Assembly (NCBI GenBank): GCA_034189385.1
Contig: JAXHVD010000040.1
Location: forward strand, 1 to 10,540
Reading direction: 5' to 3'
DNA: 10,540 nucleotides
Source of the DNA: Thermodesulfobacteriota bacterium
Lineage (GTDB): Bacteria > Desulfobacterota > Desulfobacteria > Desulfobacterales > C00003060
Part shown: one piece after another, positions 1,571 to 8,211 of the stretch
Layout of the letters: each line of letters opens with the position of its first letter
Position numbering within the stretch: position 1 is the first letter of the stretch
Notes under the pieces: model-generated
Database searches by the model: none
The model's input: the letters and a program-made list of their open reading frames with translations, nothing else
Told to the model about the DNA's origin: nothing
Made by a program: the position numbers and the translations under genes

Positions 1571-1963
1571 TCAGCCCTTCCATCTCAGTGAATGCCCATG
1601 GGCCTGTTGATACTTTTTCAGGATGAGTCTCCGGGGGAACTCAGGGCTTGAGAGGTATCTGAGGTTGGCGTCCAAGAAGCGTTGCTTAAGTTCTTTGAAC
1701 ACCTCATCCTTTTCAGTCTCTGCAATGAAATTGCGAATCTTTTCATAGCGGTACACAGCCTTGTCGTCCATCGCCGCCCCAATATCGTCTAGGAGAACAT
1801 CTTCTGAATCTTGGCCCTTGAGGTATTCCGGCTTCAGGCCCACTTCTATGGAAGCCACCATTGAGACGAGCCATCTGTCTCCAGCAACACGCTTGGAGGC
1901 ATCGTATAACTCAAGGGTCAGGCCATTTTCAAGGCTTATCATATCCACTAGTTTTTCTTCCAT
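1571..1963 (-). CDS. Hypothetical protein (~130 aa)
   Basis: Protein-like composition (LENGLTLELYDASKRVAGDRWLV...YEKIRNFI). Purine-rich SD (AGGAAGGG) precedes ATG 1963; alternative start 1981. No family recognised. Confidence 0.7.
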   Translation of the reverse strand: MEEKLVDMISLENGLTLELYDASKRVAGDRWLVSMVASIEVGLKPEYLKGQDSEDVLLDDIGAAMDDKAVYRYEKIRNFIAETEKDEVFKELKQRFLDANLRYLSSPEFPRRLILKKYQQAHGHSLRWKG

Positions 1964-2020
1964 GGTCCCTTCCTGATTCATTACTTCGGCAATTAACGAC
2001 CCCAGTAAGATGAATATGTT

Positions 2021-2120: not shown

Positions 2121-5100
2121 TCACTCAAAGAGGCTCAACTGGCGATCCCCTCTTTCCTGAGCCGGCCTTCCTGAAAAGGGGCTCCCGTATTGTTTGAGAT
2201 CTTCTTGAATCGCCTCAACATAGGGAGAAATACGCTGCTTGTTCTTCTTTCCAAACCATAGCCTCTTATTGGCGTGGGTGAGAAAGACCTTGTCCCGGGC
2301 CCGAGTCAGGGCCACATAAAACAGTCTTTGTTCTTCCGAAAGATCCCCATCATCGTCCCTTTTCCGAAAAGGGATCAGACCGTCTTCACACCCTGCAATG
2401 AAAAGCACGGGAAACTCTAGGCCCTTGGATGCGTGCATGGTCATCAGGGTCACTCTTTCTGCATTAGGATCGTATAGATCTTGTTCTTTTTCAAGGGCAA
2501 GGGTGGTGAGGAACTCTATACTCCGATCTTCAAAGGGCCGAGACAGGGCCAACAGGGTCGCCAGGTTTTCGTGGAAGCCCTTGTCATTTGACATGGCATC
2601 TCCAATGTTGAACTGGTCCAGTATGCGTTGAAGTTGTTCATGCACCTCTTGTCCATGAATCCGCTCTCTCAGTCTCTTCATGTCTTCTGAAAAACCTGCA
2701 AGTCTATCTCTGGCCGGCGGTCTCAGGCCGGAAATCTCGGCCCCGTGATCGAGAGCAGCTGCAAAGGGCCTTGCCGTGGCCTGGGACCATGTGGTCAGGG
2801 CCGCCACAGTGCCAGTACCGATCCCCCTTGGAGGGAAATTAATGATCCGCTGAAGGTCAAAATCGCTGCCGAAGGACAGCCCTACCTTCAGATAAGAAAT
2901 CAACTCCCTGATCCCTTTTCTGGTTTCAAGCTTCTGGTCCCCAACGAGCTGAAATGGAATCCCCGAACGTTCAAAGGCCTCCCTCAGGGCCTTTGCCTGT
3001 TCCTTTACCCTGTAAAGCACGGCAAAATCGGAGAAACTGCGTTCCCTTTTCTCGTAAGTGGGGTCGGTGCGACCGCTATCCATGGAAAAATGGCTGATGC
3101 CGCCAACCTCCTGATCGATCGTCTTGACAATATATTCGGCCTCGGCCCTTTCCGTGGAAAGCCGGGCAACGGTAAGGACCTTGGCCCCGTAAATGCCAGA
3201 CCAAACTTTCCCCTTGTCTTCCTCCCCGCCACGGAGGCCCATGACCTGTCCCGATGCCTGGAGAATGGTCTCTGTGGACCGATAGTTCTGGTTCAGGTGA
3301 ATCTTTTTGGCCCCTGGATAATCCGTGCAGAAGCAGTTGAAATAGTGTACGTCGGCCCCCCTGAATCCATAGATCGCCTGATTCGGGTCTCCGATCACGC
3401 AGATGTCGTGACCGGGTGGCGCCAGAAGCCGAATCAGTCGGTATTGGGCATAATTGACGTCCTGGTATTCGTCCACGGATATGTAAGGAAAACGCTTCTC
3501 GTATGCTTGCCGGATGGCATCGTGGGTTTCAAAGAGCGTCAATGTCTTAAAGACCAGGTCATCGAAATCAAGGAGATGGTTGGACGACAGAAATTGTTGA
3601 TAGGCCTTGTAGTGGGCCGGAAACTGCCTTAACAAGGTCTCAGGCACGGAGCCGCTTAAATCATCTTCCGGGGAAAGCATGCGCTGTTTGGCCAAAGAAA
3701 TGAAATGAAGAATCCTGTCAGGACCCCCTTCTGAGGCGGAAACCTTGCCGCTTTTGCGTCCCATAGCGGTTTTGACAACCTCCCTGCGGTCGGCCTCATT
3801 TAATACACAGACCGGAAGTCTTAGTCCCAAAGGGTCTGATTGTTCGGATATGACCTGAAGACAGAGGGCGTGAAAGGTCTTGACGGTCATCTCTTCCAGT
3901 GCCCTTGGATCTTCCACAGTCGCTCCCAACCGCCCGACCATCTCCTGGGCGGCCTTGTTGGTGAAGGTGACGGCCAGGACCTGTTTCGGCTTGGCAATCC
4001 CCTCTTGAAGCAGGTGCCCTATGCGATGGGTCAGGGTTCGGGTCTTTCCGGTGCCAGGGCCTGCCACGATCAGCAGGGGTCCGTCCACATGTTGCACGGC
4101 TTCCTGCTGGGCCTGATTCAGGTTTTCCCGAAGACCCGCACTTGAGGCGGAACCGTGTGGCGATCCCCTGTCTGGAGGTGCCATGAAAGGGGCTTTTGTT
4201 TCAGCGACCAACAGCTCGTTTTTAGGTGCTGCTCCTTTGGCCTGATCAAACAGGACCGGTTGAGACCTTTGGGCCCGTCCCTTTGTCTTGGCTCCAGCAG
4301 GCACCGCCAGAAGCCCCTTCTGGCCGAGAAGGTTGTGGCGTTCGTCGTCCGTAAAGAGGGAGACTGTTCCAAACTCGCCGTCATATCCCGGGGCAATCGT
4401 GACCTGGTTGTCTCTCATGCGATGGATGGCCTCTGAAAAAAGGGGTGGGCCGTGGCGCTCAAGGGCGTCTCTGGGCGTGTTCCTTAGGATCTCGAATTCT
4501 GATCCGAGCCTTTCAACCAGGGCGCGATAGGTTGTCGTTACCTTCTTGCTCTTTGGCCCTACCTGAAGCACCTCTGATAATACATCGGTGAGAGGAAGAA
4601 GGCTCGTGTAGGGATGTGCCCCCTTCGGTTTTGCCCCTGGTTTACGATCGGCCAACTCTTCCACGCGGTACATGACACCGACGGTAACGGGTCTGCCGCA
4701 TACCGGACAAAGCCCCTTGTTCTTAAGGGTCTCAAGGGGGGAGAGTCTCTGTCTGCATTTTCGGTGGCCGTCAAAATGATACTTCCCCTCTTCAGCAAAA
4801 TACTCCAGTGTGCCCAAAAAGCGCTTCGGGTCGCCCGTCTTCAGTGCGTCTCTGATAGCGAAATAAGAAGGCTGCGTGTCAAACAGGTTGGCCTCCCTGC
4901 CAAGGTTTGAAGGGGAATGGGCGTCAGAATTGGAGACCAGCGTGAACCCGTCCAAGGCAGAAAGCCGCCAGTTCATGGCAGGGTCTGCTGAAAGGCCTGT
5001 CTCTAAGGCAAAGATGTGAGAAGTGAGGTCGTCGAAGCATTCCTCAATGGAGTCAAAACCTGATTTTGAACCGAGTACGGAAAACCATGGCGTCCAGATG

Positions 5101-5591
5101 TGGGCTGGTATGAGAAAGGCATCTTCCGATGTCTCAAGGACGATTTCAAGTAGGGTCCTTGAATCAAGGCCCAAGATAGGCCTCCCATCAGAGGCAATGT
5201 TGCCGATCCGCTCCAGTCTCTGGGTAATCTTTCGGGCTGCTTCGAGGGTGGGCGCAAAGATGAGATTGTGGACCTTCCGGGTCTTACCGTCCTTTTTGTA
5301 GATACTGCTGATCTCCACACACAACATGAAGCGGACCGGCCCTTGGCAGGTCGGCGGCACCATGGAGGCCGTCTCTGCCGCAAAGGCAGGTCTTAGGCCA
5401 AAGAGACCATCTTCTTTTGGCTCAAGCTTTTCACAAAGCTCTGAAAACCACTTGGGGTGGGTGAAATCACCCGTGGCAAGAACAGTGATCCCCTTTAGCT
5501 GGGCCCACAAGTTCAGATGTTCGAGGTTCAGATTCTTGGCTGTTGCCCTTGAAAGGTAGGAATGGATATGAAGATCAGCAATAAACTCCAT
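2121..5591 (-). CDS. EndoQ-like (PHP-fold, TIGR00375-type) endonuclease fused to a UvrD/PcrA superfamily 1A helicase
   Basis: N-terminal ~415 aa: ADLHIHS, GDFTHP, PAHIWTPWFS, ETGLSAD, SNSDAHS, GKYHFDGHRKC...CPVCG, PGYDGEFG. C-terminal part: LNQAQQEAV (Q motif), AGPGTGKT, VTFTNKAA, DEYQD, GDPNQAIYGFRGA, LNQNYRS, INFPPRGIG, TMHASKGLEF, EEQRLFYVALTRA. Ends in QLSLFE. Confidence 0.9.
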   Translation of the reverse strand: MEFIADLHIHSYLSRATAKNLNLEHLNLWAQLKGITVLATGDFTHPKWFSELCEKLEPKEDGLFGLRPAFAAETASMVPPTCQGPVRFMLCVEISSIYKKDGKTRKVHNLIFAPTLEAARKITQRLERIGNIASDGRPILGLDSRTLLEIVLETSEDAFLIPAHIWTPWFSVLGSKSGFDSIEECFDDLTSHIFALETGLSADPAMNWRLSALDGFTLVSNSDAHSPSNLGREANLFDTQPSYFAIRDALKTGDPKRFLGTLEYFAEEGKYHFDGHRKCRQRLSPLETLKNKGLCPVCGRPVTVGVMYRVEELADRKPGAKPKGAHPYTSLLPLTDVLSEVLQVGPKSKKVTTTYRALVERLGSEFEILRNTPRDALERHGPPLFSEAIHRMRDNQVTIAPGYDGEFGTVSLFTDDERHNLLGQKGLLAVPAGAKTKGRAQRSQPVLFDQAKGAAPKNELLVAETKAPFMAPPDRGSPHGSASSAGLRENLNQAQQEAVQHVDGPLLIVAGPGTGKTRTLTHRIGHLLQEGIAKPKQVLAVTFTNKAAQEMVGRLGATVEDPRALEEMTVKTFHALCLQVISEQSDPLGLRLPVCVLNEADRREVVKTAMGRKSGKVSASEGGPDRILHFISLAKQRMLSPEDDLSGSVPETLLRQFPAHYKAYQQFLSSNHLLDFDDLVFKTLTLFETHDAIRQAYEKRFPYISVDEYQDVNYAQYRLIRLLAPPGHDICVIGDPNQAIYGFRGADVHYFNCFCTDYPGAKKIHLNQNYRSTETILQASGQVMGLRGGEEDKGKVWSGIYGAKVLTVARLSTERAEAEYIVKTIDQEVGGISHFSMDSGRTDPTYEKRERSFSDFAVLYRVKEQAKALREAFERSGIPFQLVGDQKLETRKGIRELISYLKVGLSFGSDFDLQRIINFPPRGIGTGTVAALTTWSQATARPFAAALDHGAEISGLRPPARDRLAGFSEDMKRLRERIHGQEVHEQLQRILDQFNIGDAMSNDKGFHENLATLLALSRPFEDRSIEFLTTLALEKEQDLYDPNAERVTLMTMHASKGLEFPVLFIAGCEDGLIPFRKRDDDGDLSEEQRLFYVALTRARDKVFLTHANKRLWFGKKNKQRISPYVEAIQEDLKQYGSPFSGRPAQERGDRQLSLFE

Positions 5592-5592
5592 T

Positions 5593-6168
5593 CTAAAACT
5601 TCACTTTAGGGGCCTCTTGTTTTTCTTCAGGTACTTCGAAGTAGGTGCCCTTTTCAAAATTGAACATCCCTGCGATCAGGTTGGTGGGAAAGCTTCTAAT
5701 CCTGGCGTTAAAGACCTTTACCGCCTCATTGAAACGGCGACGTTCCACGGCAATCCTGTTCTCCGTCCCGGCCAATTCATCTTGGAGGCGAATGAAATTC
5801 GTGTTGGCTTTTAAGTCAGGATATCGCTCTACCACCACTAAGAGGCGGGCCAGGGCCGAGGAGAGTTCATTGTTTGCCGCGATCTTTTCGTTAATGCTGC
5901 CTGCGCCGGCAACTTTGGAACGGGCCTCGGTAACACCCATTAAGACTTCTTTTTCATGCTTGGCATACCCCTTGACGGTCTCTACGTAATTGGGGATCAA
6001 ATCATAGCGGCGCTGGAGCTGGTTTTCCACCTGAGCCCAGGCCCCTTTGATGCCCTCGTCCATTTGAACGAGGCTGTTGTAGGTTCCCTTCAGATAGGAA
6101 AAGGGAATGAACACAAGAAGTATAATAACCCCTATGACGATGAGCGCGGTTTTTTGTCCCCCTGTCAT
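5593..6168 (-). CDS. lemA: LemA family protein
   Basis: N-terminal TM helix followed by YNSLV...AWAQVENQLQRRYDLIPNYVETVKGYA, ERYPDLKAN.NF..LQDELAGTENRIAVERRRFNEAV and FPTNLIA. SD GGAGG upstream. Confidence 0.95.
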   Translation of the reverse strand: MTGGQKTALIVIGVIILLVFIPFSYLKGTYNSLVQMDEGIKGAWAQVENQLQRRYDLIPNYVETVKGYAKHEKEVLMGVTEARSKVAGAGSINEKIAANNELSSALARLLVVVERYPDLKANTNFIRLQDELAGTENRIAVERRRFNEAVKVFNARIRSFPTNLIAGMFNFEKGTYFEVPEEKQEAPKVKF

Positions 6169-6219
6169 TGAACTACCTCCCTTGAAAAAAGATCATTTTA
6201 GGGCAATTGTAAGCAGCCC

Positions 6220-6954
6220 CTATTCCGTGTCCAGTTTATCCAACTGCTTCCACATGTTCCTTACTTCCTTAAGATAGGCCTGAAACAGGCCGGCCATTTC
6301 CGTGCCCGATGGTTTCAGCTTCTTTTCCCTAATGTCTAAAAGCTTTTCAAATAGGGCCTTGTCGAGGTCAAAGGTCTCACAGACCTGGGCGACGGCCTCT
6401 CGTTTACGCTGAGGGACCTCTTTTCCTTTCAAGTAGAGGAGGCCGTTAAAGACGGCAACAAAGGCATGAACAGACTGTGCAACCAGTTCCTGAAGATCCT
6501 TTCCCCTGCCGCCTGTTTCCAGAAAGGCCTCCCTCAGGAGCAAGAGCTTCGCCTTGATCTCCCTTTCGCACTGAAGCCTTAGGTAATGACGGTCAAAGGT
6601 GAGATCTTTCAAGATATCTCTGCCGTATACCGACTCATGGCAGTTCTGAAGGTTCAAGTATTCAATGGGAAAGGCGTCAAGCGATGTGCGAACATAGTCT
6701 TCCGTAAGAAACAAGGGCGTTGCCACATTGCGTTTCTTCCATTTCTTGACGACCTCGAAGGTCCGTTCAAGTGAATCGATGCCTTTATCAGAAAGCACTA
6801 TCATGAAGTTGATATCTGACTTGCCTGCAACGTACTCTCCGCTCGCTGCGCTGCCGTAAAGAATAATGGAAACCAGATCATCACCAAAAAGCTCCTTGTA
6901 GTCGCTGGTGACGTCGGAGAAGACTTCACGAGGTTCTTTGGGTATCTTGGACAT
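6220..6954 (-). CDS. Nucleotidyltransferase (pol-beta fold) domain protein with helical C-terminal domain
   Basis: FGDDLVSIILYGSAASGEYVAGKSDINFMIVL fits the hG[S]x9-13DhDh signature, but with N at the second Asp position. SD AGGAG lies 8 nt upstream of the ATG. Confidence 0.8.
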   Translation of the reverse strand: MSKIPKEPREVFSDVTSDYKELFGDDLVSIILYGSAASGEYVAGKSDINFMIVLSDKGIDSLERTFEVVKKWKKRNVATPLFLTEDYVRTSLDAFPIEYLNLQNCHESVYGRDILKDLTFDRHYLRLQCEREIKAKLLLLREAFLETGGRGKDLQELVAQSVHAFVAVFNGLLYLKGKEVPQRKREAVAQVCETFDLDKALFEKLLDIREKKLKPSGTEMAGLFQAYLKEVRNMWKQLDKLDTE

Positions 6955-7030
6955 GATATTTGCTCCTAGGAGATTGTTCCGTGTTAGGCGTTCCGGTCAG
7001 AGTCCTTGAATCTCTCAAGGTCCATTCCCC

Positions 7031-7094
7031 GCGGCTTGATTTCGACGAGCTCCATTCGGCCCGAGCTCATGGCCGAGGGCAGTCGAGTCGCCGC
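7031..7094. repeat. Nested GAGCTC-loop palindromic mini-elements
   Basis: Three concentric stems: GCGGC/GCCGC (7031-35/7090-94), TCGAC/GTCGA (7042-46/7082-86) and TCGGCC/GGCCGA (7056-61/7071-76). GAGCTC occurs at 7047 and 7063. Confidence 0.6.
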
Positions 7095-7100
7095 ATGTCC

Positions 7101-7164
7101 GTCATTCCGGCGCACGCCGGAATCCAGAAAACCAAACTGGATGCCGGATCAAGTCCGGCATGAC
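7101..7164. repeat. REP-like double-hairpin element (GTCA...TGAC)
   Basis: GTCA + ATTCCGGC-gcac-GCCGGAAT + CCAG..CTGG + ATGCCGGA-tcaag-TCCGGCAT + (T)GAC. The right half is repeated at 2021-2048. Confidence 0.8.
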
Positions 7165-7168
7165 ATAT

Positions 7169-7225
7169 GATACCCCATAGGTTCTGCCTGACGGCAGTGC
7201 TTCGCGGGCTCCGGGGTAGTTCATT
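7169..7225. repeat. GATACCCC...GGGGTAGTTCATT palindromic element with internal hairpin
   Basis: TACCCC (7171-76) pairs with GGGGTA (7213-18). Internal hairpin CTGCC-tgac-GGCAG at 7184-7197. Confidence 0.5.
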
Positions 7226-7252
7226 GGCGGGCTCTCAACGCCCCGACTTGTA

Positions 7253-8029
7253 TTAGAATCCGCCGCCGGCACCGCCGCCTCCACTCATGCCGCCGCCAAA
7301 GCCGCCGAAGCCGCCGCCAAAGCCGCCGAAACTTCCGCCAAAACCGCCCCGACCATATCCTCCAGAATATCCGCCGCCCCGGCCCATGCCCATGAGCAAC
7401 AAGAGGGGCCAGATGCCACCTCGTCTCCGTCCCATGGAAAAGAAAAGCACAAAGAAGATCAACGCAAGCAAGACCTTGATAAGGCTGCCGCCACTTCTGG
7501 CAGGCGGCCTCACGGGGGCTTGGCCTGTCAGGCGAACGCCTTGATCCTTGGCAATGATCTGGGCGATGGCAAGGGTGCCGTTCAAGAGCCCCTTGCCGAA
7601 TTGGTTCTGCCTTAGGTAGGGGATCATATATTGGTCGCGGATCTGACCGGCCAGGCCATCGGGGATGAGCCCTTCTATGCCGTATCCGGTTTCGATGCGC
7701 ATCTTCCGTTCTTTGATGGTCACAAAGAGAAGCACCCCTCTGTCCTTGCCCTTTTCCCCGATGCCCCAGGCTGCGTAAAGACGGTTGGCGTATTCGTTGT
7801 AATCCTCGCCGCCGATCTCCGGCATGGTGACCACGACGATCGGCACCTCAGTCTTTTTAAGAAGTTCTCCCGTAACCTGAACCAACCGCTGTTCATCATC
7901 GGCGGAGATGACATCGGCAAAGTCGTTGACGAGGCCCTTCGGCTTTGGGAATTCCTCTGCCCCGAGGGCCAGGGCTGACACGATGAGGGTAAAAAATAGA
8001 ACGGCGGTGAGGATTGTAAGACGCTTCAT
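7253..8029 (-). CDS. TPM domain (DUF477/YgcG-like) membrane protein with Gly-rich tail
   Basis: Signal peptide MKRLTILTAVLFFTLIVSALA, then VNDFADVIS, YANRLYAAWGIGEKGKDRGVLL and ERKMRIETGYGIEGLIPD, a C-terminal TM segment and GGFGGFGGGMSGGGGAGGGF. Start 8029 (or 8050) preferred over TTG 8173. Confidence 0.92.
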   Translation of the reverse strand: MKRLTILTAVLFFTLIVSALALGAEEFPKPKGLVNDFADVISADDEQRLVQVTGELLKKTEVPIVVVTMPEIGGEDYNEYANRLYAAWGIGEKGKDRGVLLFVTIKERKMRIETGYGIEGLIPDGLAGQIRDQYMIPYLRQNQFGKGLLNGTLAIAQIIAKDQGVRLTGQAPVRPPARSGGSLIKVLLALIFFVLFFSMGRRRGGIWPLLLLMGMGRGGGYSGGYGRGGFGGSFGGFGGGFGGFGGGMSGGGGAGGGF

Positions 8030-8099
8030 TTGTATAGGCCATCGGTTCATGGGCAATAAGCCTGGCTCCCACAAAACCTTGCCAGGTCGCTTGATATCA

Positions 8100-8108
8100 A
8101 CTATATCA
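8100..8108 (-). promoter_or_regulatory. Candidate extended -10 promoter (TGnTATAGT) for the TPM-NTase-lemA run
   Basis: Minus strand reads TGATATAGT. It abuts a perfect 10-bp palindrome TTGATATCAA (8091-8100). No good -35 box. Confidence 0.3.
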
Positions 8109-8211
8109 GAGAGCATTTGTAAAGGAAAAACCCAAAGATCATTTGGCGGTTGCCCCTGTCTTTTCAATGCCAAAACGGTTGTGCAAGCCTGTCGTGTAGG
8201 GAGTCGAGACC

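What the first reader, a model, noticed from the sequence alone, without database searches (positions are those of the whole stretch)
2121..5591. Single-chain EndoQ-like nuclease + UvrD helicase: candidate 'nick-and-unwind' deamination-repair machine
Seen: one uninterrupted ORF with an intact PHP/EndoQ motif set (HxH, H, SDAH, HxxC/CxxC Zn site; ~5591-4350), an Ala/Pro-rich linker (~4330-4135) and all SF1A helicase motifs. Established: characterised EndoQ enzymes are stand-alone and nick 5' of uracil, hypoxanthine, xanthine and AP sites, while UvrD/PcrA unwinds from nicks. Inference: the fusion couples lesion incision to displacement of the damaged strand, supplying a downstream step of an alternative excision repair pathway. 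I recall such fusions being annotated only as 'UvrD-helicase domain protein' and know of no functional study, though I cannot confirm that here.
Basis: partly seen in the sequence, partly recalled or inferred. Interest (0 to 1): 0.72.

Follow-up and report, generated by a model that had tools for sequence, protein, structure and literature searches.

The report
Clamp-tagged EndoQ nuclease–UvrD helicase fusion
One intact gene joins an endonuclease Q-type domain (an enzyme type that nicks DNA beside uracil, hypoxanthine or missing bases) to a UvrD-type unwinding motor and ends in a sliding-clamp docking tag; it is a common bacterial arrangement that likely nicks and peels off damaged DNA, and I found no experimental test of it.

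Summary
EndoQ metal and pocket residues and core helicase residues are invariant or nearly so in 121 diverse homologs. The fusion is widespread (42 of 151 phylum genomes; 15 phylum-level groups), chromosomal, absent from the phage collection. The helicase belongs to its own clamp-tailed clade. That clade is fused to EndoQ, encoded right behind it (10 operons), or unlinked, and I saw it only in genomes that have EndoQ. EndoQ often loses the helicase. The genome also has UDG, EndoV, Xth, Nfo and MutS. Best reading (0.55): clamp-tethered nick-and-unwind repair of U/Hx/AP sites; all activities are inferred. A 2016 supplement (PMC4858679, Fig. S1) already lists 34 long bacterial EndoQ homologs with this clamp motif, without naming a helicase; I found no functional study. 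This scan has reported the same fusion on other genomes at least eight times. New variant of a known kind; interest 0.48.

The parts
2121..5591 (-). Whole ORF, 1156 aa: EndoQ-like nuclease + linker + SF1A helicase + clamp motif
4332..5591 (-). EndoQ-like domain (aa 1-420): PHP barrel with H8, H10, E93, H108, H164, D223; pocket T167, E197, G199, L200, S201, N221; wedge W169; Zn site H276/C279/C295/C298
   Evidence: PfuEndoQ alignment read against PMC5961232; conservation; Foldseek 5zb8 target TM 0.88
4308..4322 (-). Degenerate internal clamp-like motif QKGLL (aa 424-428) at the place where unfused EndoQ ends in QxxLF
   Evidence: QxxL[FL]-type motif within 35 aa after the EndoQ end in 73 of 119 homologs versus 74 of 1825 control windows; degenerate in this copy
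4143..4322 (-). Predicted disordered linker (aa 424-483), length 17-169 aa across homologs
2268..4121 (-). UvrD/PcrA-type SF1A helicase core (aa 491-1108) with 2B subdomain; no PcrA/UvrD C-terminal domain
   Evidence: Pfam; TIGR01073 matched only to position 638 of 725; Foldseek UvrD-DNA 2is6 target TM 0.86; 59 aa after motif VI at the median
2127..2141 (-). C-terminal QLSLF, the consensus beta-clamp binding motif
   Evidence: 110 of 116 close full-length homologs; strict 76 and loose 99 of 120 diverse ones versus 2 of 6284 control windows; consensus from 10.64898/2026.05.27.728225

Best explanation
The gene encodes one protein with an EndoQ-type domain, a UvrD-type helicase and a QLSLF tail; it is predicted to dock on the beta sliding clamp, nick DNA just 5' of uracil, hypoxanthine or an abasic site, and then likely use its motor to peel the lesion-bearing strand away from the nick. 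Shown here: the anatomy, the intact metal, pocket and ATPase residues, the conserved tail, and the genomic partnership of the two halves. Inferred: (1) lesion-specific 5' nicking, from homology to PfuEndoQ; (2) clamp binding, from the motif and a weak complex prediction; (3) ATP-driven 3'-5' movement along the intact strand, which would displace the 5' end that carries the lesion as a flap and could also eject product-bound EndoQ (UvrD polarity is recalled knowledge); (4) flap removal, fill-in from the 3'-OH and ligation by Pol I or another nuclease plus ligase (not examined). It would act beside, not instead of, UDG, EndoV, Xth and Nfo.
For: Six metal ligands, R114/H195 equivalents and pocket residues T142, E167, G169, L170, S171 equivalents are invariant in 121 of 121 diverse full-length homologs; W144 equivalent W in 112 of 121; Walker A K/T, DE, motif III Q, IV R, IVa R, V and VI R invariant. 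Fold matches to PfuEndoQ and UvrD-DNA. Trees of the two halves agree (Spearman 0.84, 34 of 57 splits shared, 60 rows). Ten unfused loci have the helicase gene directly downstream (6 of 80; 4 of 20), and clamp-like tails occur on both genes in most of them. All 64 EndoQ-linked helicases fall in one clade (SH 98) apart from PcrA, Rep and E. coli UvrD; the 7 other members come from genomes that hold EndoQ elsewhere. Archaeal EndoQ binds PCNA by a C-terminal motif (PMC4858679). DnaN + tail prediction: weak support, 0.57 versus best control 0.00, partner pLDDT at least 53, 92% contact agreement; at 0.60 or under the mark was passed by 18 of 157 solved complexes and by both of the 2 of 215 mismatches that passed, and clamp-peptide complexes are solved, so this may be memory. 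In 13 of 80 loci dnaN lies within 6 kb, mostly divergent (one related group). EndoQ stays bound to its product (PMC5961232, PMC11354406), which gives a motor a job.
Against: No activity was measured. EndoQ stands without an adjacent helicase in 16 of 20 unfused phylum loci checked and stand-alone forms nest repeatedly among fused ones (at least 8 forced changes); three congeners lost the helicase in place. Pol I nick translation could remove a 5' lesion without a helicase (recalled). G000 keeps two UDG-family genes, EndoV, Xth, Nfo and MutS1. EndoV is found in 18 of 42 fused, 27 of 64 other EndoQ and 27 of 45 EndoQ-less genomes; no clear exclusion, and 18 genomes have neither. The internal clamp motif is degenerate in this copy. 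TIGR00375 is below cut-off and the first Zn ligand is His rather than Cys in 119 of 121, so specificity may differ from archaeal EndoQ.
Confidence: 0.55

Rival explanations
1. The motor serves the nuclease rather than the strand: it moves EndoQ along DNA or strips product-bound EndoQ (or other proteins) from the nick so that Pol I can finish a short patch, with little strand displacement.
For: EndoQ is single-turnover and stays on its product. The 2B subdomain is variable (73-194 aa between the 10th percentile and the maximum) and missing in the six split operons.
Against: All unwinding-related motifs (III Y/F/R, IVa R) are kept. Nothing here separates this from the best explanation, and both could hold.
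Confidence: 0.15
2. The two halves are only co-tethered on the clamp: the helicase does general UvrD/PcrA work (excision or mismatch repair, fork clearance) and EndoQ works on its own.
For: In the window's order none of 31 genomes has a TIGR01073 match over cut-off or reaching the C-terminal domain, and the fused helicase is the best PcrA-like hit in many. Each half carries its own clamp-like motif when split. EndoQ drops the helicase often.
Against: The helicase clade was seen only in genomes with EndoQ (82 of 232 matches were not listed). Three genomes checked hold both the fusion and a separate full-length PcrA-type gene (G176, G162, G052). A separate ~670-aa SF1A is listed in 21 of the 31 order genomes.
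Confidence: 0.15
3. It is an anti-phage nick-and-unwind enzyme that recognises uracil-rich or otherwise modified foreign DNA, loosely like Gabija's nickase plus UvrD pair.
For: A review notes a proposed antiviral role for Bacillus EndoQ and resistance to Ugi (PMC8307549). The helicase half hits GajB profiles.
Against: The PADLOC hits shown cover only the helicase half (best 25 of 54). The gene is near-core in the order (27 of 31). The recurring neighbour clusters that I annotated are dnaN, gyrB, rdgC-like, SLT, leuS and metabolic genes. No match in 50,697 phage records and 1 of 72,556 plasmid records, a stand-alone form.
Confidence: 0.1

Closest known systems
Endonuclease Q (PfuEndoQ PF1551, TkoEndoQ TK0887, MacEndoQ, Bacillus pumilus EndoQ; TIGR00375; PDB 5zb8, 7k30-7k33)
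   Same: PHP + Zn + helical architecture, all six metal ligands, lesion-pocket residues, a C-terminal sliding-clamp motif.
   Different: Fused to an SF1A helicase; Zn site is His/Cys3; about 31% identity, below the TIGR00375 cut-off; the strong clamp motif lies behind the helicase.
Long bacterial 'EndoQ homologs' of Shiraishi et al. 2016, PMC4858679 Supplementary Fig. S1 (34 of 44 rows with the motif at aa 941-1244)
   Same: Very probably this family: same length class, same terminal QLxLF, overlapping taxa (Desulfobacteraceae, Caldilinea, Saccharopolyspora, Sorangium). I did not fetch those accessions.
   Different: The supplement and the main-text passages seen do not name the helicase ('helicase' 0 and 'fused' 0 occurrences in the main text) and give no experiment on them.
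UvrD / PcrA / Rep (SF1A helicases; PDB 2is6, 3pjr)
   Same: Whole motor core and fold (target TM 0.86).
   Different: No C-terminal PcrA/UvrD domain; ends in a clamp motif; variable or absent 2B in relatives; own clade; below all equivalog cut-offs.
Helicase-nuclease machines AddAB, RecBCD, AdnAB and Gabija (GajA + GajB)
   Same: A nuclease coupled to a UvrD-like motor.
   Different: The nuclease is N-terminal and PHP/EndoQ-type; no partner subunits are encoded nearby; those systems act at ends or on phage DNA (recalled).

Membership tests
Endonuclease Q | PHP + Zn-binding + helical three-domain fold | tested here: met
   phmmer over aa 5-411; Foldseek 5zb8 and 7k30 target TM 0.88
Endonuclease Q | Metal ligands H8, H10, E76, H84, H139, D193 plus R114, H195 | tested here: met
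   H8, H10, E93, H108, H164, D223, R137, H225; 121 of 121
Endonuclease Q | Lesion pocket and DNA contacts T142, W144, E167, G169, L170, S171, N191, R201, K243, Y244 | tested here: met
   T167, W169, E197, G199, L200, S201, N221, R232, K270, Y271 in this protein; K276 equivalent is T303
Endonuclease Q | C4 zinc site C249/C252/C268/C271 | tested here: inconclusive
   First ligand is H276 (119 of 121 homologs), other three Cys invariant; His can bind Zn (recalled), binding not tested
Endonuclease Q | TIGR00375 score over curated cut-off | tested here: not met
   153.9 versus 326.6 bits; this lowers strict orthology to the archaeal/Bacillus group, not the likeness of mechanism
Endonuclease Q | Nicking 5' of U, Hx, X and AP sites | not testable with these tools
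   needs biochemistry
SF1A helicase (UvrD-like) | Motifs Q, I, Ia, II, III, IV, IVa, V, VI and 1A/1B/2A/2B fold | tested here: met
Canonical PcrA / UvrD / Rep orthologs | Equivalog score over cut-off and C-terminal domain | tested here: not met
   TIGR01073 526.7 versus 911.2, match ends at 638 of 725; separate clade
SF1A helicase (UvrD-like) | ATP-dependent 3'-5' unwinding | not testable with these tools
   needs biochemistry
Beta-clamp binding proteins | QL[S/D]LF motif in an exposed tail, conserved beyond chance | tested here: met
Beta-clamp binding proteins | Physical binding to DnaN | tested here: inconclusive
   prediction gives weak support, 0.57 versus 0.00, possibly from memory of solved clamp-peptide complexes
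Gabija or other PADLOC defence system | Cognate partner gene (GajA/OLD) and mobile or defence-island setting | tested here: not met
   hits shown only on the helicase half; near-core in the order; housekeeping neighbours; no phage match

The most novel reading that the evidence does not exclude
Many bacterial phyla run an undescribed clamp-coupled, long-patch excision pathway for deaminated or misincorporated bases (dU, dI) and abasic sites: EndoQ marks the strand with a 5' nick and a dedicated, clamp-tailed UvrD subfamily, which occurs only with EndoQ (fused, in an operon or unlinked), strips the damaged strand behind the replication fork. This would supply the missing downstream step of EndoQ-initiated repair in a single polypeptide.
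Probability: 0.35. Interest if true: 0.7.

Novelty: new variant of a known kind. Interest (0 to 1): 0.48.

Why it matters
What happens after EndoQ nicks is open: PMC4357722 offers two drawn models, one with an unnamed helicase. A natural nuclease-helicase-clamp-tag protein makes that step testable with one purified enzyme, and the 2016 list includes long forms in genetically tractable genera (Zymomonas, Desulfovibrio, Geobacter). It also shows EndoQ-type genes are far more common in bacteria than the early papers stated (106 of 151 genomes sampled in this phylum). The gene itself is an ordinary member of a large family, so the value lies in the untested pathway, not in this copy.

Tried and rejected
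Assembly artefact: rejected. Non-nuclease PHP phosphatase: rejected; the only solved-structure sequence hits of the N domain are EndoQ (3 of 177,635). Second copy as a paralog: rejected; C56:98153-101617 lies in a block syntenic to 86% of the window contig at 77-90% identity, and several other small contigs are duplicated the same way, so the window contig is probably from a co-binned sister species; statements on G000's other repair genes therefore concern the bin. Replacement of EndoV: not supported (Fisher p 0.05 for any EndoQ, 0.14 for fused, kin not independent). Profiles against ung and mutS were run on G000 only, not across genomes. Mobile or defence element: not supported. Literature on the fusion: searches EndoQ+UvrD (3 papers), EndoQ+helicase (27), 'endonuclease Q'+fused (11), 'PHP domain'+UvrD (5), EndoQ/yqxK/TIGR00375/COG1379 (48), UvrD/PHP/fusion terms (6), and mutant-fitness searches for Desulfovibrio and Zymomonas gave no functional study in listings or the passages read; passages of PMC3919608, PMC5571576 and PMC10746277 held nothing on it. 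PMC6941527 and PMC7958190 were not held; the 2017 B. pumilus paper (PMID 28095753) was not looked up and may mention the fusion. No RNA holder listed. Rows left out: L064 and L073 (truncated helicase pieces) were not counted as operons; L123 (long branch) was dropped from the last tree; trees are FastTree only, with no AU test. A notebook line saying all 31 order genomes have the ~670-aa helicase is wrong: 21 are listed.
Full report
Observation. The minus-strand ORF at 2121-5591 is uninterrupted and 1156 aa long. Its first 420 residues hit only EndoQ among solved structures: PfuEndoQ 5zb8 at E 1.1e-50 over aa 5-411, and the 7k30-7k33 forms. TIGR00375 gives 153.9 bits, under its cut-off of 326.6. 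Residues 491-1108 are UvrD-helicase plus UvrD_C. An AlphaFold2 model built on 64 homologs (mean pLDDT 81.6, pTM 0.56) has two folded halves and a low-confidence linker at aa 424-483; Foldseek matches them to UvrD-DNA 2is6 (target TM 0.86) and PfuEndoQ (0.88). A contig of run X1 crosses the junction without a difference, though that run may be the source sample.

Catalytic residues. Reading the alignment against PMC5961232 (parts 2-4 of 6 read), the Pfu ligands H8, H10, E76, H84, H139, D193 map to H8, H10, E93, H108, H164, D223, and R114, T142, W144, E167, G169, L170, S171, N191, H195, R201, K243, Y244 map to R137, T167, W169, E197, G199, L200, S201, N221, H225, R232, K270, Y271 (S171 from PMC8307549). 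Of the best 150 representatives at 50% identity (3693 hits in all), 145 carry a helicase match and 120 a whole one; in those 120 plus the query the residues above are invariant except W169 (112 of 121) and N221 (105 of 121). The first Zn ligand is His in 119 of 121. Walker A, Walker B, motif III Q/Y/F, IV R, IVa R, V and VI R are invariant. Both active sites look maintained.

The protein ends in QLSLFE. QL[S/D]LF is the consensus beta-clamp motif, and a QLSLF peptide bound the E. coli clamp at 0.64 uM (10.64898/2026.05.27.728225, part 1 of 3 read). A matching tail is present in 110 of 116 close homologs over 1000 aa and in 76 (strict) or 99 (loose) of 120 diverse ones, against 2 of 6284 control windows for the strict pattern. 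A second motif follows the EndoQ domain in 73 of 119 homologs against 74 of 1825 control windows; here it is degenerate. A prediction of the last 36 residues with the bin's DnaN gave weak support: 0.57 against a best control of 0.00, partner pLDDT at least 53, 92% contact agreement; scores of 0.60 or under passed for 18 of 157 solved complexes and for both passing mismatches of 215, and clamp-peptide structures are known, so it shows likeness only.

Distribution. In 31 related genomes 27 have the N domain, nearly all in one copy and mostly in frames over 1000 aa. In 151 genomes drawn across the phylum 106 have it, 42 in frames of 948 aa or more. The best 80 of at least 600 GTDB loci gave 53 whole fusions, 9 cut or partial fusions, 3 cut by the contig end, 8 with a helicase piece next door and 7 alone; the 60 rows taken into trees span 15 phylum-level groups by record title. 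There is no match among 50,697 phage records and one stand-alone match among 72,556 plasmid records. In 13 of the 80 loci, all of a related deltaproteobacterial group, dnaN lies nearby on the other strand, mostly with gyrB and an rdgC-like pair. In the window the gene starts one base after the lemA stop, behind TPM-domain and nucleotidyltransferase-like genes, an order shared with congeners.

Partnership of the halves. Trees of the two halves agree (Spearman 0.84; 34 of 57 splits). Six of the 80 loci are clean two-gene operons whose helicase lacks 2B, and 4 of 20 unfused phylum loci have a helicase gene directly downstream; clamp-like tails sit on both genes in most. All 64 EndoQ-linked helicases form one clade (SH 98) apart from E. 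coli UvrD and Rep, full-length PcrA-type genes and two other stand-alone SF1A groups. Seven further members are not next to EndoQ, and each comes from a genome that has EndoQ elsewhere (G001, G055, G056, G089, G119, G133, G150); the five helicase-bearing EndoQ-less genomes I sampled (G081, G093, G103, G147, G175) gave only genes outside the clade. This rests on the 150 listed of 232 matches and on FastTree. The dependence looks one-way: the helicase needs EndoQ, EndoQ does not need the helicase. Stand-alone EndoQ nests among fused forms repeatedly, and three congeners lost the helicase at this locus.

Other repair genes. The bin holds two UDG-family genes, EndoV, MutS1, Xth, Nfo and DnaN. Across the 151 genomes EndoV is found in 18 of 42 with the fusion, 27 of 64 with other EndoQ and 27 of 45 without. 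The window's order shows no PcrA over cut-off in 31 genomes, which keeps a general-helicase role open there, but three phylum genomes checked hold both the fusion and a full-length PcrA-type gene. The window contig is 86% duplicated on C56 at 77-90% identity and probably belongs to a co-binned sister species.

Mechanism. EndoQ cuts 5' of the lesion, leaving a 3'-OH and the lesion on the 5' end, and stays bound (PMC4357722, PMC5961232, PMC11354406; passages). A 3'-5' motor (recalled polarity of UvrD) moving on the intact strand would lift exactly that 5' end and could push the nuclease off. The clamp tag would place this on newly replicated or repair-loaded DNA, as the PIP box does for archaeal EndoQ (PMC4858679 passages). 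I put this at 0.55, motor-for-turnover at 0.15, mere co-tethering at 0.15, phage defence at 0.10, and leave 0.05 for another substrate. None of these steps was measured.

Prior knowledge. Supplementary Fig. S1 of PMC4858679 (whole file read) lists 44 bacterial EndoQ homologs with clamp motifs, 34 of them at positions 941-1244; it does not name the helicase. I was led to that file by earlier notes of this scan, which reported the same fusion on other genomes (8 shown, 32 look-alike windows); my own reading, including the clamp tail, was written before that look-up. Nine paper searches found no functional study in what I saw, but three EndoQ papers could not be or were not read. The finding is therefore a real, common, half-noticed variant of EndoQ whose pathway is untested.

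Noticed in passing
window contig C35 versus G000:C56:93560-104048; C32 overlap: 86% of the window is duplicated in synteny on C56 at 77-90% identity, and C26, C32, C40, C43, C47, C61 are similar partial duplicates, so the bin likely holds a sister species.
   Followed up: yes
window 5593-8173 (-): TPM-domain gene, a 244-aa gene with an N-terminal nucleotidyltransferase-like stretch (no Pfam hit; PADLOC PDC-S09 aa 6-65) and lemA form a conserved run upstream of the fusion in congeners.
   Followed up: partly
window 7023-7217 and 2002-2077: Short intergenic repeats with near-identical copies on many contigs of the bin (87 bp at 95-97% on five other contigs), REP- or MITE-like.
   Followed up: no
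window 1571-1981 (-): A 136-aa protein with no Pfam, NCBIfam or PADLOC hit lies directly downstream of the fusion here and in L001-L003 and L007.
   Followed up: no
L001:4602-5915, L002:3566-4858, L003:3744-5045: Congeners in which the helicase half is deleted in place, leaving a 430-437-aa EndoQ with no terminal clamp motif.
   Followed up: yes
L049, L050, L055, L056, L078, L082: Natural SF1A helicases of 483-515 aa that lack the 2B subdomain, encoded right behind EndoQ, most ending in QxxLF.
   Followed up: partly
L014, L018, L022, L024, L030, L031, L034, L062, L077 (about 4500-5950): A pair of small genes, one RdgC-like and one without a Pfam hit, sits between dnaN-gyrB and the fusion in many Desulfobacterales-type loci.
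   Followed up: no
G000 relatives: None of 31 genomes of this order has a PcrA match over cut-off or reaching the C-terminal domain; a ~670-aa SF1A without that domain is listed in 21.
   Followed up: partly
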